DNA of 17,293 nucleotides from a virus. The notes below the pieces were generated by a model, which saw only the letters and a list, made by a program, of their open reading frames with translations, searched no databases and was not told where the DNA came from. The number at the start of each line of letters is the position of its first letter. Positions within the stretch are counted from its first letter, which is position 1. This document shows, piece after piece, positions 1,974 through 12,272 of the stretch. The stretch lies in UHGV virus genome UHGV-0371215; one strand, written 5' to 3'. Position numbers and translations under genes: made by a program.

Positions 1974-4079
1974 TTACCAGCCCGTAATGTAGTTATCGCC
2001 CGCGTAAATATTCAGCCCCATACCATCTTCGGTGACGCGGGAACTGGTCAGACGTAACCCCTCGCCAAGTTCGACACGCAGCGAGGCTTCCGCATTGACT
2101 TTTTGCTCCTGCGGTTCCTTATCCGGGGCCGTCCACTTCTGATACAGGTCAGTTACAAAACCGCCCAGATATTCCCCGGCGACACTGCCCAGCGTGGCAC
2201 CGGCAACCGTACCCAGTGGTCCGGCAAGGCTGCCAACGGCACCGCCGAGCCATGCACCGGCTGTACTGCCAATGGCCCCGGCTTTTTCATGGACTGACGC
2301 CTGCTCATCCATCAGAACAGGGGCAAGCTGGAGTGCCCCCATTACCGGGCCACCCAGACGAGACAGCGCACGACCGGCACCTTTCCCCATCCAGCCCAGC
2401 GCCCCGGCACCTTTTGTCATAACCCGACCGATCGCACTGCCTGCAAGTTTGTTTCCGATACCGGAAAACCACCCGCCAGCGGCACGCCCGGCATCAGCCA
2501 GCTTTCCGACCGTTCCCGTAACCAGTTGTCCGGCAGCACTGCCTGCAAGCCTGCTCAGAAGACCGGATTGGCCGGGTAAAGGTAATGGGGCAGGCCGTGC
2601 TGTTACCGGTACGCCGGGAGGGGGTAATGCCGGTAATGCCTGTGGTTTTGGTGCCGGTAATGCAGGAACAGAGCGTGGTGCAGGTAATGCCGGCGGCTGT
2701 GGCCCGGACAGCAATAACGGCTGGCGGGGTAACAGCGGGGCCATTCTTCCGCCGCTCCGTACGCGACGACCGCCGCCACTCCCGTAGCCACCAAATCCAC
2801 GGGGCCAGTTGATGACAAACACACGCTGAATGCCGATACCCTGCAACAGCGTCTCAGACGTCATGGCATCCGGGACCGGCAGTGCTGCCTGCCCACGTTT
2901 GCGGTTTCGCATCCAGCGCCACATACGACGCCCGGTTTTAAACGGATAACTGGCAACCTGCCATGAGGGTTTTGCCACGGCCCAGCCTGCTCTCAGGGCT
3001 TTATTGGCAAGCCAGACAGACACCAGAACAGCAGCCAGTTTTTTCAGGCTGACAATATTCTGGTCAACCCATGCCAGCGCATCTTTACCCGGTTTCAGCC
3101 AGCGCCATAATTCCTGCGCCGCGATTTTTACCGTTCTGAACGTGGTCAGAAATTTCTGACCAATGTTTTCTGCCAGTGCGTCAAGTTCCCCGGATTTATC
3201 CGCCATGTCGTGCCAGTTAAGCACCCGGCGCATCTCGTTCTTGATTTCTTCAAAGGGGCCGCTGTTTGCCACCTTCGTGCGAAACTCAAGCAGGTTGCCC
3301 TCCATCTGGGCCATCATCCCGTCCCAGGAGTTCATGGCAGCCGCCTGTGCGCCTTTTGACTGCTCCAGCAGGGTCCGGAATACCGTCAGAATGGATTTCA
3401 GGCCCAGCTTGCCTTTTTCACCCAGCTTACGGATTTTTTTCTCATCCTCACCCGTTGCATCTGCCAGCACCTTGTAAACGTTGATACCGTAACCGGTCAG
3501 CAGGTTGGCGTCCGCCGCCGTGATTTGCTGGCGGGCAAACATCTGTTTGAACTGTAACGATGCACCCTGTGCAGTGGGTAAATCCCAGCCATGCATCGCG
3601 CCCTGATTCTGTAGCATGGTGATGAACTGTTTTACCTGGGCATCAGTCATGCCAAACGCAGTTGATGTGCGGATCTCCTGCAGAACACCACCCAGCCCCC
3701 AGGTGGTTTCTTTTGCGTTCTGCTTCGCCCACGCCATCATGGCCTGTGCTCTGGCCTTATCGCCGTGATAGAGCGAGTTCATGGCGATAATCTGCTGCTC
3801 ACGCTGAGCGGCTGCACCAATAAACAGTTTATTGGCGGTGTAACCCACGCCAGCGATACCCAGCGCCCCGGCTGACAGCATTCGGAATGTACGGGTTGAC
3901 AGTGAACCCATTCTGTCAATGGCACCAGAAACGCGCACAACCTCCATACGCAGGGCACGAAGGGAACTTTGCCCGCTACGGGACAGGACGTTTATCTGGT
4001 TCGAATACTGGCGGGAACGCCGGGAAAGATTGCCATTAAGATCAATAATGACAGACGCCTTTAAGCGTTTCCCGGTCAT
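1974..4079 (-). CDS. Tail tape measure protein
   Basis: 701-aa ORF with an AGGAAA Shine-Dalgarno 7 nt upstream of ATG 4079; internal hydrophobic segment, Pro/Ala-rich linker (ALPAP repeats) and Gly-rich C-terminal region; position after tube and chaperone genes. Confidence 0.85.
2575..2700. repeat. Short imperfect tandem repeats (ggtaatgcc units) inside the tape measure gene, encoding Ala-Leu-Pro repeats
   Basis: ggtaatgcc at 2623-2631 and 2632-2640, with ggtaatgc again at 2656-2663 and 2683-2690; the reverse complement GCATTACC(G) encodes the ALPAP-type repeats seen in the protein. Confidence 0.5.
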
Positions 4080-4093
4080 AGATATTTCCTGAT

Positions 4094-4261
4094 TTAACGG
4101 TGATATTGAGAGAGGGTTTTAGCCTGCTGGCAGTGCCGGAAAAAGCGGGACAGCGGGAGAGACAAGGCCCATTCCGGGCCACTTTTCAGAATAACGCCAA
4201 TCGCTGTCGCCGCTTTCTCAATATCATTCCGGCACCGCAGCCACTCGCCCCCGTTCTTGTG
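4094..4261 (-). CDS. Possible frameshift extension of the tail assembly chaperone (alternate frame bridging chaperone and tape measure genes)
   Basis: The +1 frame relative to the chaperone opens at a TGA (4264-4262) 12 codons before the chaperone stop and stays open for 55 codons without any start codon, ending at TAA 4096-4094, 15 nt before the tape-measure ATG. Confidence 0.35.
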   Translation of the reverse strand, partial: HKNGGEWLRCRNDIEKAATAIGVILKSGPEWALSLPLSRFFRHCQQAKTLSQYHR

Positions 4262-4658
4262 TCAGCGATGCCGCCACAGCCATGTCGTACATTTCTGTGG
4301 CCAGCGACAGACGCTGGAAGTCATCGACAGACAGTTTACGAATCAGCGCCATCGACAACGGGCCTTTGATGCAGCCCACGCTGGCAATCTGTCGGCGCAG
4401 CATTTCCAGTCCCATCCGGGACGGGGAACTGACCAGCACCGGACCTTCCTTGCTCATTACCAGCTTTTCAGCAGCCGCCTGTGCATCAATCATATCGCCT
4501 GCGGTCAGTTCACGCAGCGTCACGTCATACTGCATTTCAGTCTCGTCACCGGTGCCGAACGGCAGGCCGTCTTTCAGTTTCAGCACGCCGGACTGAATTT
4601 CTGCCACAATGCTGTCATGCAGTTCCTGTGCTTCAGGACCTAAATTCATTTCGTCCAT
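4224..4658 (-). CDS. Tail assembly chaperone-like protein (Mu gp41-like)
   Basis: 144-aa acidic ORF between the tube and tape measure genes, the conserved position of myovirus tail chaperones. Confidence 0.7.
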   Translation of the reverse strand: MDEMNLGPEAQELHDSIVAEIQSGVLKLKDGLPFGTGDETEMQYDVTLRELTAGDMIDAQAAAEKLVMSKEGPVLVSSPSRMGLEMLRRQIASVGCIKGPLSMALIRKLSVDDFQRLSLATEMYDMAVAASLTQERGRVAAVPE

Positions 4659-4667
4659 TGTTTCCCC

Positions 4668-5024
4668 TTATGCAATGCGTTTGCTTTGTTTTGCCATCAG
4701 TACCAGCGAAATTTCGCCGCCGTCGTTTTTCGGTTCATCTGCCTGCCAGGCATTCGCCATCATCCAGGTTTCACCGGTGTCTGCCTGAAACTCTGCCGTG
4801 ATGTTTTCCCAGCCGATGATTTCATCCAGACCGATATCACCACCGCCCGGAATTTTGCATTCCAGCTTTGCGGCACGTGGTTTACCTTTCCAGCCATAAA
4901 CCCGCGAGCCGGTCACTTCTTCACGGGTGATGCCGGAAGGCGTGAAGGAGGCCCCTTCCATCGTTTCAAGCTCCATGCCATTGACACGGATGAACGCCAC
5001 CCCCTGACGCTGATTTCCAGCCAT
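4668..5024 (-). CDS. M: Tail tube protein (Mu gpM-like)
   Basis: 118-aa ORF starting 9 nt after the sheath gene stop; size and position typical of Mu-type tube proteins. Confidence 0.8.
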   Translation of the reverse strand: MAGNQRQGVAFIRVNGMELETMEGASFTPSGITREEVTGSRVYGWKGKPRAAKLECKIPGGGDIGLDEIIGWENITAEFQADTGETWMMANAWQADEPKNDGGEISLVLMAKQSKRIA

Positions 5025-5033
5025 AAATGCTCC

Positions 5034-6521
5034 TTACAGAATGAACTGAACTTGTGCCGCGAAAATGCGGAACTGGTTAATCAGATTCGGGCCGCACAGC
5101 ACATCAAGACGGTCTTTGTCGTCCTTGTTACGTGCCACATACAGCTCCTCTTTGAACGTGTCGAAATCCTCGACCAGTCCGGCGTTTTCCCATTCTTCAA
5201 ACAGTGCCAGCAGCTCCGTTTTGATCACGGATGGCGTCACCACGGCCTGACCGGTGGCAAAGCGGGTGCCATCACTTGCCAGCTTGTGGTTCGGGAATTT
5301 CTGCGTGATGCGGGTTCGCAGCGAATAACGCAGATAACTCAGCGTGGCGATGGTATTCACGTTCAGATAAGACGGATCACTGTCACCGTACTTGTTTGTG
5401 CGGTACATCGTGATCATGCGTTCAATCTGCATTTCACCACCATCATTCACGTTAAACGTGGAGATGCCGTCAAACAGCAGCGCATTACGTTCTGACCAGG
5501 TGAAACGATCCCCCACCGCAGGCGGCATTCTTCCGGGCAACGTCAGCGTCTGGAGAGGACGCGCCGGGTCGATGGAAAGCGCCTGGCTGGCAACGGCACA
5601 CAGTGTGGCGGCGTACAGATATGACGGTTCCGGTGCACCGGCAATCCCCATACAGGAAATCAGATGGTCATTACGACTGACACCAAACGTGGAAATATCC
5701 CCATACGTGCCGGACAGCACTGTCACGGCAAAGCCATCAGCCTGATTGACCGGTCCCCAGCGTTCCTGCAATTCAGTGCGTAACAGATTCAGGTTCGGTT
5801 CATCGGTATAGGGCATCACAATATATTTGTATTGCAGATCGCCCATTCCCGCGATACTTGCGCTGATATCCGGGTTGCTGTTTTTCCCGGATGCGGCTTT
5901 GAATGCCGTGATAATCCCGTAAGGGGTGGTTTCACCCGCGTAATAGTTCCAGCGCACGTCCACGGCAGATAATGCACCTGTAAATTTTGCACTCAGAACC
6001 ACATCTGCATGGGTGTCATCATCCCCGCTGTCTGCGCGAACTTCTGCCGTCACCGGTAAATCCGGCTGACCTTTGATTCGGGCAACCAGCAGGTCAGCCA
6101 GCGCCGCTCCCGTTGCACCTGCTGCGACAGATACCGCCAGTCGCTGACCGGCAATGTAAGTCACAAGCGAGCCGTTTTCGCCTGCTGTTCCTGACAGTGA
6201 AATTTCACCGACAGCAGCATTACCGGTGCCGTTCCCCTGCGGAATACACCACAGCTCCGCCACGCGGTTAGCGTTCAGGAATGCATCTGCCATCAGTGCC
6301 AGCATGGAACCCTGACCAAACGCCGCACTGGCCTGTGAGCCGGAACGGATACGGACAGGCACGTTCGGTGTGGCACTGGCTTTACTTCCGCTTTGCCCGA
6401 ACATCAGCACGCGCTGACGGGGTGCCGGTGTTCCGCTGACGGCATTACTGTTATCAAATTCGATATACGTCAGAGGAACGCGAACATCTGACGGGATCGC
6501 GTTAAATGAAATATCGCTCAT
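5034..6521 (-). CDS. L: Tail sheath protein (Mu gpL-like)
   Basis: 495-aa ORF; ATG at 6521-6519 overlaps the upstream stop in an ATGA junction; N-terminus [24 protein letters not shown] is sheath-like. Confidence 0.85.
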
Positions 6522-10818: not shown

Positions 10819-10859
10819 GTATTGAGCTCCTCTTACATGAAAAATATACTGACGCTACA

Positions 10860-10938
10860 GGCGCTGTACGCTTAACGGTAAAGACGGTGTCAACCCCGCA
10901 GGGGAGCATGTATACAGGTTCGACTCCTGTCAGCGCCT
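10860..10938 (+). other. tRNA-like motif (T-arm plus acceptor stem only) in the F-G intergenic region; not a canonical tRNA
   Basis: ACAGG-TTCGACT-CCTGT (10914-10930) has a T-arm-like 5-bp stem and 7-nt loop, followed directly by CAGCGCC (10931-10937) that pairs perfectly with GGCGCTG (10860-10866); a T follows at the U8 position. I could not fold a D-arm or anticodon arm from the intervening 47 nt. Confidence 0.25.
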
Positions 10939-12272
10939 TAATCCAGCGTACCTTCCAGAATTTCAACCACACCCCCGGCAATATCCGATTTCAGGGCGCT
11001 GATGTCCGGCAGCCTGTATGCATTGATCAACACATCCAGACGGTCAGCCTGTCGCTTTAACGAATAAGCCGCATTGACCACCACCTTTGCGCTCCCGGTT
11101 CCGGTGCTGACCAGGTAAATCAGGTTATTGTGTCGCCTGTCCCAGAGCACCGCCTGCGGTTTTGCCAGCAGTGACGGCAGTAACCGCAAATCCTCAGGCA
11201 GCAGTGCAACCCCCGTTTTGTGGTGTTTCGGGCTGTCCGCATGAAGCAGGCTTTTTTCGCTCATTACCAGCAGTCTGGCCGGGGCTTCACCTGTTCGCGC
11301 CTGTACGGCATCTGCCACAGATTCAGTCATAAAACCCAGCGTCTGGATCCCGTGACCGGCACGGCGTGATTCGGTCAGACGTTTCACCCATAAGGAAAAA
11401 GCAAGCTGACGCTCCCGGCTGTTATTCAGCGTCTGTACAACCTGTTCACGCAATTGTGCGTCACGGACCTCCACCAGTTTTCGAATCAGCGCCTGATCCG
11501 TACCAAACGCCGCCGAACCCGGGTTATATGACCAGCCCACATCCGGCGTCATTTTTACCCGACCATTGTCAAACGTGGTCGACGATGTGCGGAAAATCTC
11601 TCCGGTGCTTTCATCCGTGCCGGCCTCCACTTCACGGGTATTCATGAATGACGCACCATAACTGACCTGTAGCCCCAGTTCTTTCATGCGGGCCGCAGAC
11701 AGCGCCCGGACGCGACAGCGGCAGTTCCAGCCATTGGGCGGGTAATGCGTCTGCCAGAAAATGTCGTCATACCGGAAAACCATATTGTGCAGCCGCGCAT
11801 GTTCCGGGCGTGTTCTGCCATCCATAACGGCAACGTACTGCCAGTACGGGTACAAATCGGCGGTATTCATCATCTGTGCATAACGTCCTACCCCATACGC
11901 CGTACGGGTATTGACGTTATAAATGGTTGCCAGACGACGCGGACTGCCCAGCTCGATTACCTTTGCGTTTCCGTCTGCATCCACGATGATTTGTTTTCCC
12001 CACCATCCGAGTTTTTGCAGCCGGGGGGCCAGTGTGCGGGTAAATTCTTCACGGGTGATGCCTTCACTGACAGCCCGCTCCACTTCCTCACGGATTGTGG
12101 TCAGGACATCCATCCGGGTGGCTTTGGCAACGGTAAAGGCGCGGGCGTGCGCGTCTGCCAGTTGTTCGTACCAGTTCCAGGTGATGTTGTAGCCTTTGGC
12201 GCGGAAATACGCGACAGCCTCCTTTGGCGGGAGGCGTGCGGCATACGCCAGATCAATGGTCTGCTGCGGCAT
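10938..12272 (-). CDS. F: Head morphogenesis protein, MuF (gp30) family, with about 150-aa C-terminal extension of unknown function
   Basis: ORF 10938-12308 in the track starts at GTG; ATG at 12272-12270 with a G-rich Shine-Dalgarno is the preferred start (444 aa). MuF-like core includes YPPNGWNCRCRV and PDVGWSYNPG; C-terminal about 150 residues (His/Arg/Lys-rich) follow the core. Confidence 0.8.
   Translation of the reverse strand: MPQQTIDLAYAARLPPKEAVAYFRAKGYNITWNWYEQLADAHARAFTVAKATRMDVLTTIREEVERAVSEGITREEFTRTLAPRLQKLGWWGKQIIVDADGNAKVIELGSPRRLATIYNVNTRTAYGVGRYAQMMNTADLYPYWQYVAVMDGRTRPEHARLHNMVFRYDDIFWQTHYPPNGWNCRCRVRALSAARMKELGLQVSYGASFMNTREVEAGTDESTGEIFRTSSTTFDNGRVKMTPDVGWSYNPGSAAFGTDQALIRKLVEVRDAQLREQVVQTLNNSRERQLAFSLWVKRLTESRRAGHGIQTLGFMTESVADAVQARTGEAPARLLVMSEKSLLHADSPKHHKTGVALLPEDLRLLPSLLAKPQAVLWDRRHNNLIYLVSTGTGSAKVVVNAAYSLKRQADRLDVLINAYRLPDISALKSDIAGGVVEILEGTLD

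What the first reader, a model, noticed from the sequence alone, without database searches (positions are those of the whole stretch)
4094..4264. Alternate frame bridging tail chaperone and tape measure genes: candidate +1/-2 programmed frameshift
A frameshifted extension of the tail chaperone is a conserved feature of tailed phages, usually -1. Here the -1 frame closes almost immediately, while the +1 (equivalently -2) frame opens just before the chaperone stop and runs 55 codons with no start codon to 15 nt before the tape-measure ATG. That geometry suggests an extension expressed only by a non-canonical shift, near a CGG-GGG-CGA run (4253-4245) that is not a classical X-XXY-YYZ heptamer.
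Basis: partly seen in the sequence, partly recalled or inferred. Interest (0 to 1): 0.45.

Follow-up and report, generated by a model that had tools for sequence, protein, structure and literature searches.

The report
Known phage Mu -2 tail-chaperone frameshift
The shifted reading frame between the tail chaperone and tape-measure genes is real, but it is the already published and database-annotated -2 ribosomal frameshift of bacteriophage Mu, whose sequence here is identical to this window.

Summary
The chaperone ORF is 4658..4224 (-), 144 aa. The in-phase run CGG GGG CGA lies at 4253-4245. The +1/-2 frame has 55 open codons from 4261 to TAA 4096-4094, 14 nt before the tape-measure ATG at 4079. 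The -1 frame closes at 4188-4186.

The window is a Muvirus. Bases 4060-4330 are 100% identical to phage Mu. GenBank AF083977.1 annotates this product (Mu_56) as a "verified -2 translational frameshift in PMID 15469818". The 188-aa -2 product equals UniProt P0DJY4, "FS-gp41".

The open frame alone is not unusual (about 12% by chance). Comparison supplies the evidence. In 40 of the 42 chaperone loci checked first (10 phage lineages and 32 bacterial genome loci, 36-61% identical to Mu), [C/A]GG GGG CGA is in phase. In all 42 the +1/-2 frame stays open to about the tape-measure start, with a coding substitution pattern. The two exceptions are decaying prophages.

I found no downstream RNA stimulator in the Mu lineage. 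Side observations: a covarying hairpin 6 nt downstream in marine Mu-like phages; canonical -1 heptamers in distant relatives; and a database disagreement over the junction residue (Gly or Arg).

The parts
4668..5024 (-). Tail tube gene (Mu gpM / Mu_40 homologue), immediately upstream of the chaperone
   Evidence: Pfam PF10618 Tail_tube, E 3e-35. Annotated as tail tube protein in Mu.
4224..4658 (-). Tail assembly chaperone gp41 (analogue of lambda gpG), the zero-frame product of 144 aa
   Evidence: ORF. Pfam PF23746 Gp41_Mu, E 8e-34. PHROG 508, tail assembly chaperone. 100% identical to Mu gp41.
4245..4253 (-). Shift site CGG GGG CGA, in phase with the chaperone frame. The five G at 4252-4248 let the Gly tRNA on GGG re-pair 2 nt upstream.
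   Evidence: Conserved as [C/A]GG GGG CGA in 40 of the first 42 related loci.
4227..4261 (-). The 35-nt overlap in which both the zero frame and the +1/-2 frame are open. It is the only place where a shift gives a long product.
4094..4249 (-). T-like extension read in the -2 (=+1) frame: 51 sense codons (GGC at 4249-4247 to CGT at 4099-4097) plus TAA 4096-4094. The full FS-gp41 is 4658..4248 joined to 4249..4094 (stop codon TAA 4096-4094 included), 188 aa.
   Evidence: The translation equals UniProt P0DJY4 exactly. PHROG 12783, E 2e-29. Coding-type substitution pattern in the shifted frame.
4186..4188 (-). TGA that closes the -1 frame 106 nt before the tape-measure start
1974..4079 (-). Tape measure protein gene (Mu gp42 homologue), 701 aa. 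Its ATG at 4079 lies 14 nt after the stop of the extension.
   Evidence: Pfam PF20155 TMP_3, E 9e-15. Mu annotation. 655 of 701 aligned columns are identical to Mu, with an 11-aa insertion.

Best explanation
This is the programmed -2 ribosomal frameshift of phage Mu that produces the G-T type tail assembly chaperone pair.

Most ribosomes translate the chaperone gene to its TGA and make gp41 (144 aa). A few percent shift at CGG GGG CGA. The likely event is that the peptidyl Gly tRNA on GGG (4250-4248) slips back two bases onto the identical GGG (4252-4250) while the A site holds the rare, slowly read CGA codon. Reading then resumes at GGC GAG UGG and continues for 51 codons to TAA 4096-4094. 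This gives FS-gp41 (188 aa).

By analogy with lambda gpG/gpGT, the shared N-terminal part binds the tape measure protein, and the extension recruits the tail tube protein. The fixed low shifting rate sets the ratio of the two proteins. Neither protein is expected in the finished virion.

Shown here: the sequence identity to Mu, the geometry, the conservation of the site and frame, and the coding signature of the extension. Taken from literature and annotation: that the fusion is made, that the shift is -2, and that its efficiency is about 2%. Inferred: which tRNA slips, the role of CGA, and the binding partners.
For: - Window 4060-4330 is identical to Mu. The whole window is 97% identical to Mu, D108 and PhiR68_1.
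- The exact 188-aa -2 product is UniProt P0DJY4 FS-gp41. The 187-aa +1 product is not deposited for Mu.
- Literature: natural -2 frameshift for Mu gpGT at about 2.2% (PMC3498833); -2 used in decoding Mu (PMC5009743); -1, or -2 in Mu, conserved before the tape-measure gene (PMC2628397); the Mu 10-mer alone gave 14% shifting in a cell-free reporter (bioRxiv 10.1101/2025.10.02.679949).
- Gene order is tube, chaperone, tape measure, with Pfam support.
- Comparison: [C/A]GG GGG CGA is in phase in 40 of 42 loci whose chaperones are only 36-61% identical. In every one the +1/-2 frame is open for 46-52 codons after the site and ends between 23 nt inside and 14 nt before the tape-measure start. The -1 frame closes at scattered places.
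- Given the residues R-G-R, the window's codon usage predicts this codon triple about 0.2% of the time (CGG 13.6%, GGG 18.5%, CGA 7.1%). This argues for selection on the nucleotides.
- The first Arg codon is always NGG. This keeps G at the two positions needed for -2 re-pairing and is not needed for +1.
- Substitutions in the extension follow the codon positions of the shifted frame: 735/399/1069 at positions 1/2/3 in the marine clade, and the same ranking in the Mu clade.
Against: - I could not read the primary paper. The -2 direction and the efficiency rest on secondary citations and database notes.
- The two curated records disagree on the junction residue: RG-G-EW in UniProt and RG-R-EW in GenBank UIW09302.1. 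The tRNA that slips is therefore not settled by what I could see.
- The cell-free reporter in the 2025 preprint cannot separate -2 from +1 or from slippage by the RNA polymerase.
- No stimulatory RNA structure was found in the Mu lineage: z -0.35 and -0.47, and no covariation. The efficiency must therefore come from the nonamer itself, and this is unexplained in detail.
- Loci L064-L066 have CGG GGG GAG in place of CGA. CGA is therefore not indispensable in every lineage.
Confidence: 0.93

Rival explanations
1. The shift is +1 rather than -2. The Gly tRNA on GGG moves forward one base to GGC while the A site waits on the rare CGA codon, as in +1 sites such as prfB or Ty1. The product would be 187 aa with junction R-G-E-W.
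For: +1 and -2 reach the same frame, so the geometry fits both. A rare A-site codon is typical of +1 P-site slippage (own knowledge). The review notes that most access to the +1 frame is by +1 shifting (PMC5009743). The 2025 reporter cannot tell the two apart.
Against: The GenBank note and two reviews state that -2 was verified for Mu. Both deposited fusion sequences are 188 aa, and the 187-aa form is absent for Mu. Re-pairing GGG to GGC is poorer than GGG to GGG. The two G upstream of the GGG codon are invariant in 40 of 40 sites although Arg has six codons. This is expected for -2 and not for +1.
Confidence: 0.04
2. Transcriptional slippage: RNA polymerase adds two G, or drops one G, in the G5 run, and ordinary translation of the edited mRNA gives the fusion.
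For: Adding GG would give the same RGGEW protein as a -2 ribosomal shift. The only fully invariant element is a homopolymer run. The cell-free reporter used coupled transcription and translation.
Against: Five G is short for productive polymerase slippage, which usually needs longer A or T runs (own knowledge). The adjacent CGA codon is conserved in 40 of 40 sites of the main set, which a polymerase mechanism does not require. The primary paper and the annotation call it translational.
Confidence: 0.02
3. The alternate-frame ORF is an independent small gene ('41.5', as annotated in phage D108) that starts on its own at a non-ATG codon.
For: The D108 records annotate a 48-aa '41.5' CDS here. 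Its first codon corresponds to the CTG at window 4240. The same 48-aa protein is deposited under several accessions.
Against: There is no ATG or GTG in the frame, only CTG and one late TTG. The Mu annotation marks no ribosome-binding site for it. In relatives the open frame always spans the slip site, whereas its upstream limit varies from 17 to 86 nt before the chaperone stop. This is expected for a shift and not for an initiation site. The fusion is reported as verified.
Confidence: 0.01

Closest known systems
Phage Mu gp41 / FS-gp41 -2 frameshift (Xu, Hendrix and Duda 2004, PMID 15469818; UniProt P0DJY4; GenBank AF083977.1 Mu_56)
   Same: Everything tested. The DNA is identical across the site and extension, gp41 is identical, the 188-aa product is identical, and the flanking tube and tape-measure genes are the same.
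   Different: Nothing at the site itself. The window comes from a Mu relative (about 97% identical overall; best match PhiR68_1). Its tape measure protein is 11 aa longer than Mu's.
Lambda gpG / gpGT -1 frameshift at G_GGA_AAG (Levin, Hendrix and Casjens 1993; reviewed in PMC5009743)
   Same: It lies between the major tail (tube) gene and the tape-measure gene. A low-rate shift near the end of the chaperone gene gives a C-terminally extended second product. No stimulatory RNA element is needed. The ratio of the two products matters for tail assembly.
   Different: The direction is -1 with a tandem-slip heptamer X_XXY_YYZ. Here it is -2 on a G5 run followed by CGA. There is no detectable sequence similarity of the proteins to lambda G or T (only Gp41_Mu and Phage_TAC_7 were hit). 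Mu has a contractile tail.
Distant members of the same chaperone family with a -1 shift (IMG/VR loci L069, L071, L073)
   Same: The chaperones are homologous (31-37% identity). The extension ends at the tape-measure start, and its tail carries a similar 'LP..F' motif.
   Different: The extension is in the -1 frame, with canonical in-phase heptamers G_GGA_AAA or G_GGA_AAC. The direction of the shift has therefore changed within one protein family.
Arterivirus nsp2TF -2 frameshift (Fang et al. 2012, as cited in PMC5009743)
   Same: A natural, functional -2 ribosomal frameshift that gives a product with an alternative C-terminus.
   Different: It occurs in a eukaryotic RNA virus, at 20% efficiency, and depends on a viral protein acting in trans. 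The Mu site shows no sign of a trans-activator or of an RNA stimulator.

Membership tests
G/GT-type tail assembly chaperone frameshift of long-tailed phages | The chaperone gene lies between the major tail/tube gene and the tape measure gene | tested here: met
   The order on the minus strand is tube 5024..4668, chaperone 4658..4224, tape measure 4079..1974, with Pfam Tail_tube, Gp41_Mu and TMP_3 hits.
G/GT-type tail assembly chaperone frameshift of long-tailed phages | An alternate-frame ORF without its own start overlaps the 3' end of the chaperone gene and fills the gap to the tape measure gene | tested here: met
   The +1/-2 frame is open over 4261..4097. It overlaps the chaperone by 35 nt and ends 14 nt before the tape-measure ATG. 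It has no ATG or GTG.
G/GT-type tail assembly chaperone frameshift of long-tailed phages | A shift-prone sequence inside the overlap that allows tRNA re-pairing in the new frame | tested here: met
   CGG GGG CGA at 4253-4245 is in phase. GGG re-pairs perfectly 2 nt upstream.
G/GT-type tail assembly chaperone frameshift of long-tailed phages | The site and the shifted frame are conserved in relatives despite low protein identity | tested here: met
   The motif is present in 40 of the first 42 loci, and the frame is open in all of them. The substitution pattern is of coding type in the shifted frame.
G/GT-type tail assembly chaperone frameshift of long-tailed phages | The fusion protein is actually made at a low, fixed ratio and is needed for tail assembly | not testable with these tools
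   Literature and annotation only: 'verified -2 translational frameshift' and about 2.2% (PMC3498833). A requirement for tail assembly is shown for lambda, not for Mu, in what I could read.
Canonical -1 tandem-slippage site (X_XXY_YYZ) | An in-phase heptamer X_XXY_YYZ in the overlap and a -1 frame open to the tape measure gene | tested here: not met
   There is no such heptamer in the overlap. The -1 frame stops at 4188-4186, 106 nt before the tape-measure start, and its end point is not conserved in relatives.
Phage Mu FS-gp41 (UniProt P0DJY4) | Identical product sequence | tested here: met
   The exact-sequence look-up of the 188-aa -2 translation returns P0DJY4.1.
Frameshift sites with a 3' RNA stimulator (hairpin or pseudoknot 5-9 nt downstream) | A stable, conserved structure just downstream of the shift site | tested here: not met
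   In the window the fold is no better than shuffles (z -0.35; z -0.47). The Mu clade shows no compensatory changes. A structure of this kind is present in the marine clade only.

The most novel reading that the evidence does not exclude
Nothing new remains for the window itself. The most novel reading left open by the evidence concerns relatives. In marine Mu-like phages and prophages (Vibrio, Shewanella, Rheinheimera, Marinomonas, Photobacterium) the same [C/A]GG GGG CGA site is followed, 6 nt downstream, by a long covarying hairpin of about 64 nt. This hairpin may act as a 3' stimulator of the -2 shift, whereas the enterobacterial Mu lineage works without one. A second open point is which tRNA slips, because curated records give Gly or Arg at the junction.
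Probability: 0.3. Interest if true: 0.3.

Novelty: already known. Interest (0 to 1): 0.1.

Why it matters
As a discovery it does not matter. The Mu -2 frameshift was published in 2004, is cited in reviews as the first natural -2 case, and is in GenBank and UniProt.

It has practical value for annotation. Of the phage records inspected here, only AF083977.1 annotates the fusion product. D108 calls the extension a separate '41.5' gene, and RefSeq Mu, SfMu and the Vibrio, Shewanella and Pasteurella phages list only the short chaperone. The in-phase nonamer [C/A]GG GGG CGA followed by an open +1/-2 frame up to the tape-measure start is a simple rule that would recover the fusion product across Mu-like prophages of Gammaproteobacteria.

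Tried and rejected
- Primary sources could not be read. Xu et al. 2004 and Baranov et al. 2006 are not held. The exact published junction could therefore not be checked.
- Literature searches for the sequence string GGGGGCGA gave only unrelated hits. A 'phage Mu' hit in PMC4810235 was a false match to 'phage mutants'.
- A nine-sequence chaperone alignment was too divergent for the search for related loci. A five-sequence alignment worked.
- I looked for a downstream RNA stimulator in the Mu lineage and rejected it. The fold was no better than shuffles, and five Mu-clade sequences showed no compensatory pairs.
- I tested whether the open frame or the nonamer alone is statistically unusual in the window. 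Neither is. The case rests on position, phase and conservation.
- Independent initiation of the extension was rejected because it has no ATG or GTG and no conserved upstream limit.
- A canonical -1 shift was rejected because the -1 frame closes early and there is no heptamer.
- My first automated pass mis-scored loci L011, L023, L042 and L043, because their chaperone genes carry internal frame breaks. Inspection showed that the site and extension are present in them too.

Full report
**What is in the sequence**

All genes in this part of the window are on the minus strand. The order is tail sheath (6521..5034), tail tube (5024..4668), a 144-aa ORF (4658..4224), a 144-nt stretch with no zero-frame gene, and then a 701-aa ORF (4079..1974). 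Pfam assigns these to Phage_sheath, Tail_tube, Gp41_Mu (tail assembly protein gp41; E 8e-34) and TMP_3 (tape measure).

- The +1/-2 frame opens after TGA 4264-4262, 35 nt before the chaperone stop (TGA 4226-4224). It stays open for 55 codons to TAA 4096-4094, 14 nt before the tape-measure ATG at 4079.
- That stretch contains no ATG or GTG. It has one TTG at codon 33 and three CTG.
- The run CGG GGG CGA is at 4253-4245, in phase with the chaperone. It is the only [A/C]GGGGGCGA in the window.
- The -1 frame closes at 4188-4186, about 12 codons past the chaperone stop and 106 nt short of the tape-measure gene.

**Is it more than chance?**

Not by itself. 11.9% of shuffles of the 165 nt have no stop in that frame. 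Within the window's own genes, 12.6% of +1-frame open stretches are at least 55 codons long. The nonamer is expected 0.42 times per window. What is unusual is the combination: the motif is in phase inside the 35-nt overlap, and the frame fills exactly the one large gap in a tightly packed tail module. The comparison below adds the decisive evidence.

**Identity of the window**

The region is 98-99.7% identical to Muvirus genomes (Mu, D108, PhiR68_1, Mu_3F6, SfMu and Yersinia Mu-like phages). The whole 17.3-kb window is about 97% identical to them over 97% of its length. Bases 4060-4330 are identical to Mu AF083977.1, and the chaperone protein is 100% identical to Mu gp41.

**It is already annotated and published**

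- The -2 translation of the window is 188 aa: 4658..4248 joined to 4249..4097, junction ...QERG-G-EWL.... It is found by exact look-up as UniProt P0DJY4, 'Probable tail assembly protein FS-gp41 [Escherichia phage Mu]'. The 187-aa +1 translation is not deposited for Mu.
- Firth et al. [quoted passage not shown]
- Atkins et al. 2016 list Mu among the -2 cases. They note that in some tailed phages the shift seems to need no stimulatory signal (PMC5009743).
- The KS10 genome paper summarises Xu et al. as '-1 (or -2 in Mu)' (PMC2628397).
- A 2025 preprint used the Mu 10-mer as a positive control and measured 14% shifting in a cell-free system. Its reporter cannot separate -2 from +1.

I collected eight further phage lineages by tblastn (SfMu, a Mu-like insert in an Stx phage, and Pasteurella, Klebsiella, Alteromonadaceae, Vibrio and Shewanella phages). 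I added 34 loci from bacterial genomes. Their chaperones are 36-61% identical to Mu, apart from SfMu at 90%.

- [C/A]GG GGG CGA is in phase with the chaperone in 40 of the 42 loci that could be checked.
- In all 42 the +1/-2 frame is open for 46-52 codons after the site. It ends between 23 nt inside and 14 nt before the tape-measure start.
- The -1 frame closes at scattered positions.
- The two exceptions are a Sodalis MAG and Candidatus Pantoea persica. They read GCG GGG CGA and have truncated tape-measure ORFs, so they are decaying prophages.

R-G-R is invariant in the protein alignment, but the constraint is on the nucleotides:
- The window's own codon usage predicts this codon triple about 0.2% of the time, given those residues.
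- The first Arg codon is only ever CGG or AGG. This keeps G at the two positions needed for re-pairing 2 nt upstream.
- A C-to-A change at the first base of CGA would be synonymous in both frames, yet it is never seen.

The extension is under protein-coding selection in the shifted frame. Summed pairwise differences at codon positions 1/2/3 are 735/399/1069 in the marine clade, and the ranking is the same in every Mu-clade pair. A conserved motif, 'LP[LI]R/S..[FL]', appears near its end. The extension alone matches PHROG 12783 (E 2e-29), a family of unknown function. Records such as D108 '41.5' show that the extension is sometimes annotated as a separate orphan gene.

**Mechanism**

Shown: the site, phase, frame and conservation.

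From the literature: the fusion is made, the shift is -2, and the efficiency is low.

Inferred: the Gly tRNA in the P site on GGG (4250-4248) re-pairs with GGG (4252-4250) while the A site waits on CGA, which accounts for 7.1% of Arg codons in the window's genes. Decoding resumes at GGC. Three observations support a slip on the G run as the common element:
- The five G are invariant.
- The base before them is free (C or A).
- A variant lineage (L064-L066) has CGG GGG GAG, with six G, no CGA, and the same shifted frame.

I found no RNA stimulator in the Mu lineage. The 123-nt and 70-nt folds are no better than shuffles (z -0.35 and -0.47). Five Mu-clade sequences show no compensatory pairs.

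By analogy with lambda, the gp41 part would coat the tape measure protein and the extension would recruit the tube protein (PMC5009743). This step is inference for Mu.

**Rivals**

- +1 instead of -2: same frame, but contradicted by the annotation, the reviews and the NGG constraint.
- Transcriptional slippage: G5 is short, and the conserved CGA is unexplained by it.
- Independent initiation of '41.5': no start codon and no conserved upstream limit.

None of these can be fully excluded by computation. Together I give them about 7%.

**Unresolved detail**

UniProt P0DJY4 reads ...ERG-G-EWL. GenBank UIW09302.1 reads ...ERG-R-EWL, with the join placed after CGA. Both are '-2', but they imply different slipping tRNAs. 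I could not read the primary paper to see which was observed.

**Side observations in relatives**

(a) In the marine clade every sequence folds into a hairpin of about 64 nt starting 5-7 nt after CGA. Single-sequence z is -1.7 to -7.1, and mostly -3 or lower. On 13 sequences its closing helix is 91% paired, 5 of 6 pairs show changes on both sides, and 0 of 500 shuffles reach this. On 15 sequences with 12 pairs it is 85% paired, against 31-49% when the partner columns are slid. The covariation comes from only about three lineages, so this remains a lead. It would be a 3' stimulator at the classical spacing.

(b) Distant relatives of the chaperone (31-37% identity) carry the extension in the -1 frame behind canonical heptamers G_GGA_AAA or G_GGA_AAC. 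The direction of the shift has therefore switched within one family.

(c) Some public assemblies have a genomically fused 187-aa gene. This reflects a one-base-shorter G run or an assembly error.

**Verdict**

The feature is the known Mu -2 frameshift. Interest as a finding is low.

Noticed in passing
L008-L010, L025-L036, L045-L063 (alignments A4 and A7, columns 16-27 and 67-79); not in the window: Marine Mu-like phages and prophages have a hairpin of about 64 nt starting 5-7 nt after the CGA of the same slip site. Single-sequence z is -1.7 to -7.1 (mostly -3 or lower). The closing helix is 85-91% paired, 5-6 pairs show changes on both sides, and 0 of 500 shuffles reach this. It may be a 3' stimulator of the -2 shift and is absent from the Mu lineage. 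The covariation rests on about three independent lineages.
   Followed up: partly
window 4245-4250 (junction); proteins P0001 and P0006: Curated databases disagree on the junction residue of Mu FS-gp41. UniProt P0DJY4 has ...ERG-G-EWL (re-reading GG after GGG). GenBank UIW09302.1 has ...ERG-R-EWL (join after CGA). Both are 188 aa and both are called -2, but they imply different slipping tRNAs.
   Followed up: partly
L069, L071, L073 (IMG/VR contigs), last ~30 nt of the chaperone gene: Distant relatives of the same chaperone family (31-37% identity) carry the extension in the -1 frame, behind canonical in-phase heptamers G_GGA_AAA or G_GGA_AAC. The shift direction has therefore changed within one protein family.
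   Followed up: partly
L064-L066 (IMG/VR contigs), site at locus position 1046: A variant slip site, CGG GGG GAG (six G, no CGA), with the extension still in the +1/-2 frame. On a G6 run both a +1 and a -2 slip give perfect re-pairing.
   Followed up: no
L016 (Sodalis MAG) position 1861; L021 (Candidatus Pantoea persica): These are the only two loci without the G5 run (GCG GGG CGA). Both have tape-measure ORFs truncated after 124-135 codons, which suggests decaying prophages in symbiont genomes.
   Followed up: partly
proteins P0002 and P0008 (Logan assemblies): Some public contigs encode a genomically fused 187-aa chaperone-extension gene (junctions RGEWL and RGQWL). This corresponds to a G run one base shorter. 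It is either an assembly error in the homopolymer or a natural mutant that makes only the fusion.
   Followed up: no
window 1974-4079 (-), tape measure residues ~472-482: The tape measure protein is 701 aa against 690 aa in Mu. It has an 11-aa insertion in the proline-rich ALPAP repeat region. Elsewhere 655 of 701 aligned columns are identical.
   Followed up: partly
window 10831-11303 (-): A segment of about 470 nt, near the end of the minor head protein gene (Mu gp30/F) and the start of gp31/G, has no blastn match to Mu, although the flanks are 96-98% identical. It looks like a locally replaced or divergent segment.
   Followed up: no
Phage records H3/H5 (D108), H7 (RefSeq Mu), SfMu, and the Vibrio, Shewanella, Pasteurella and Alteromonadaceae phages: Among the phage records inspected, only AF083977.1 annotates the frameshift product. 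D108 lists the extension as a separate '41.5' gene starting at a CTG. The others leave a gap of 107-144 nt unannotated.
   Followed up: yes
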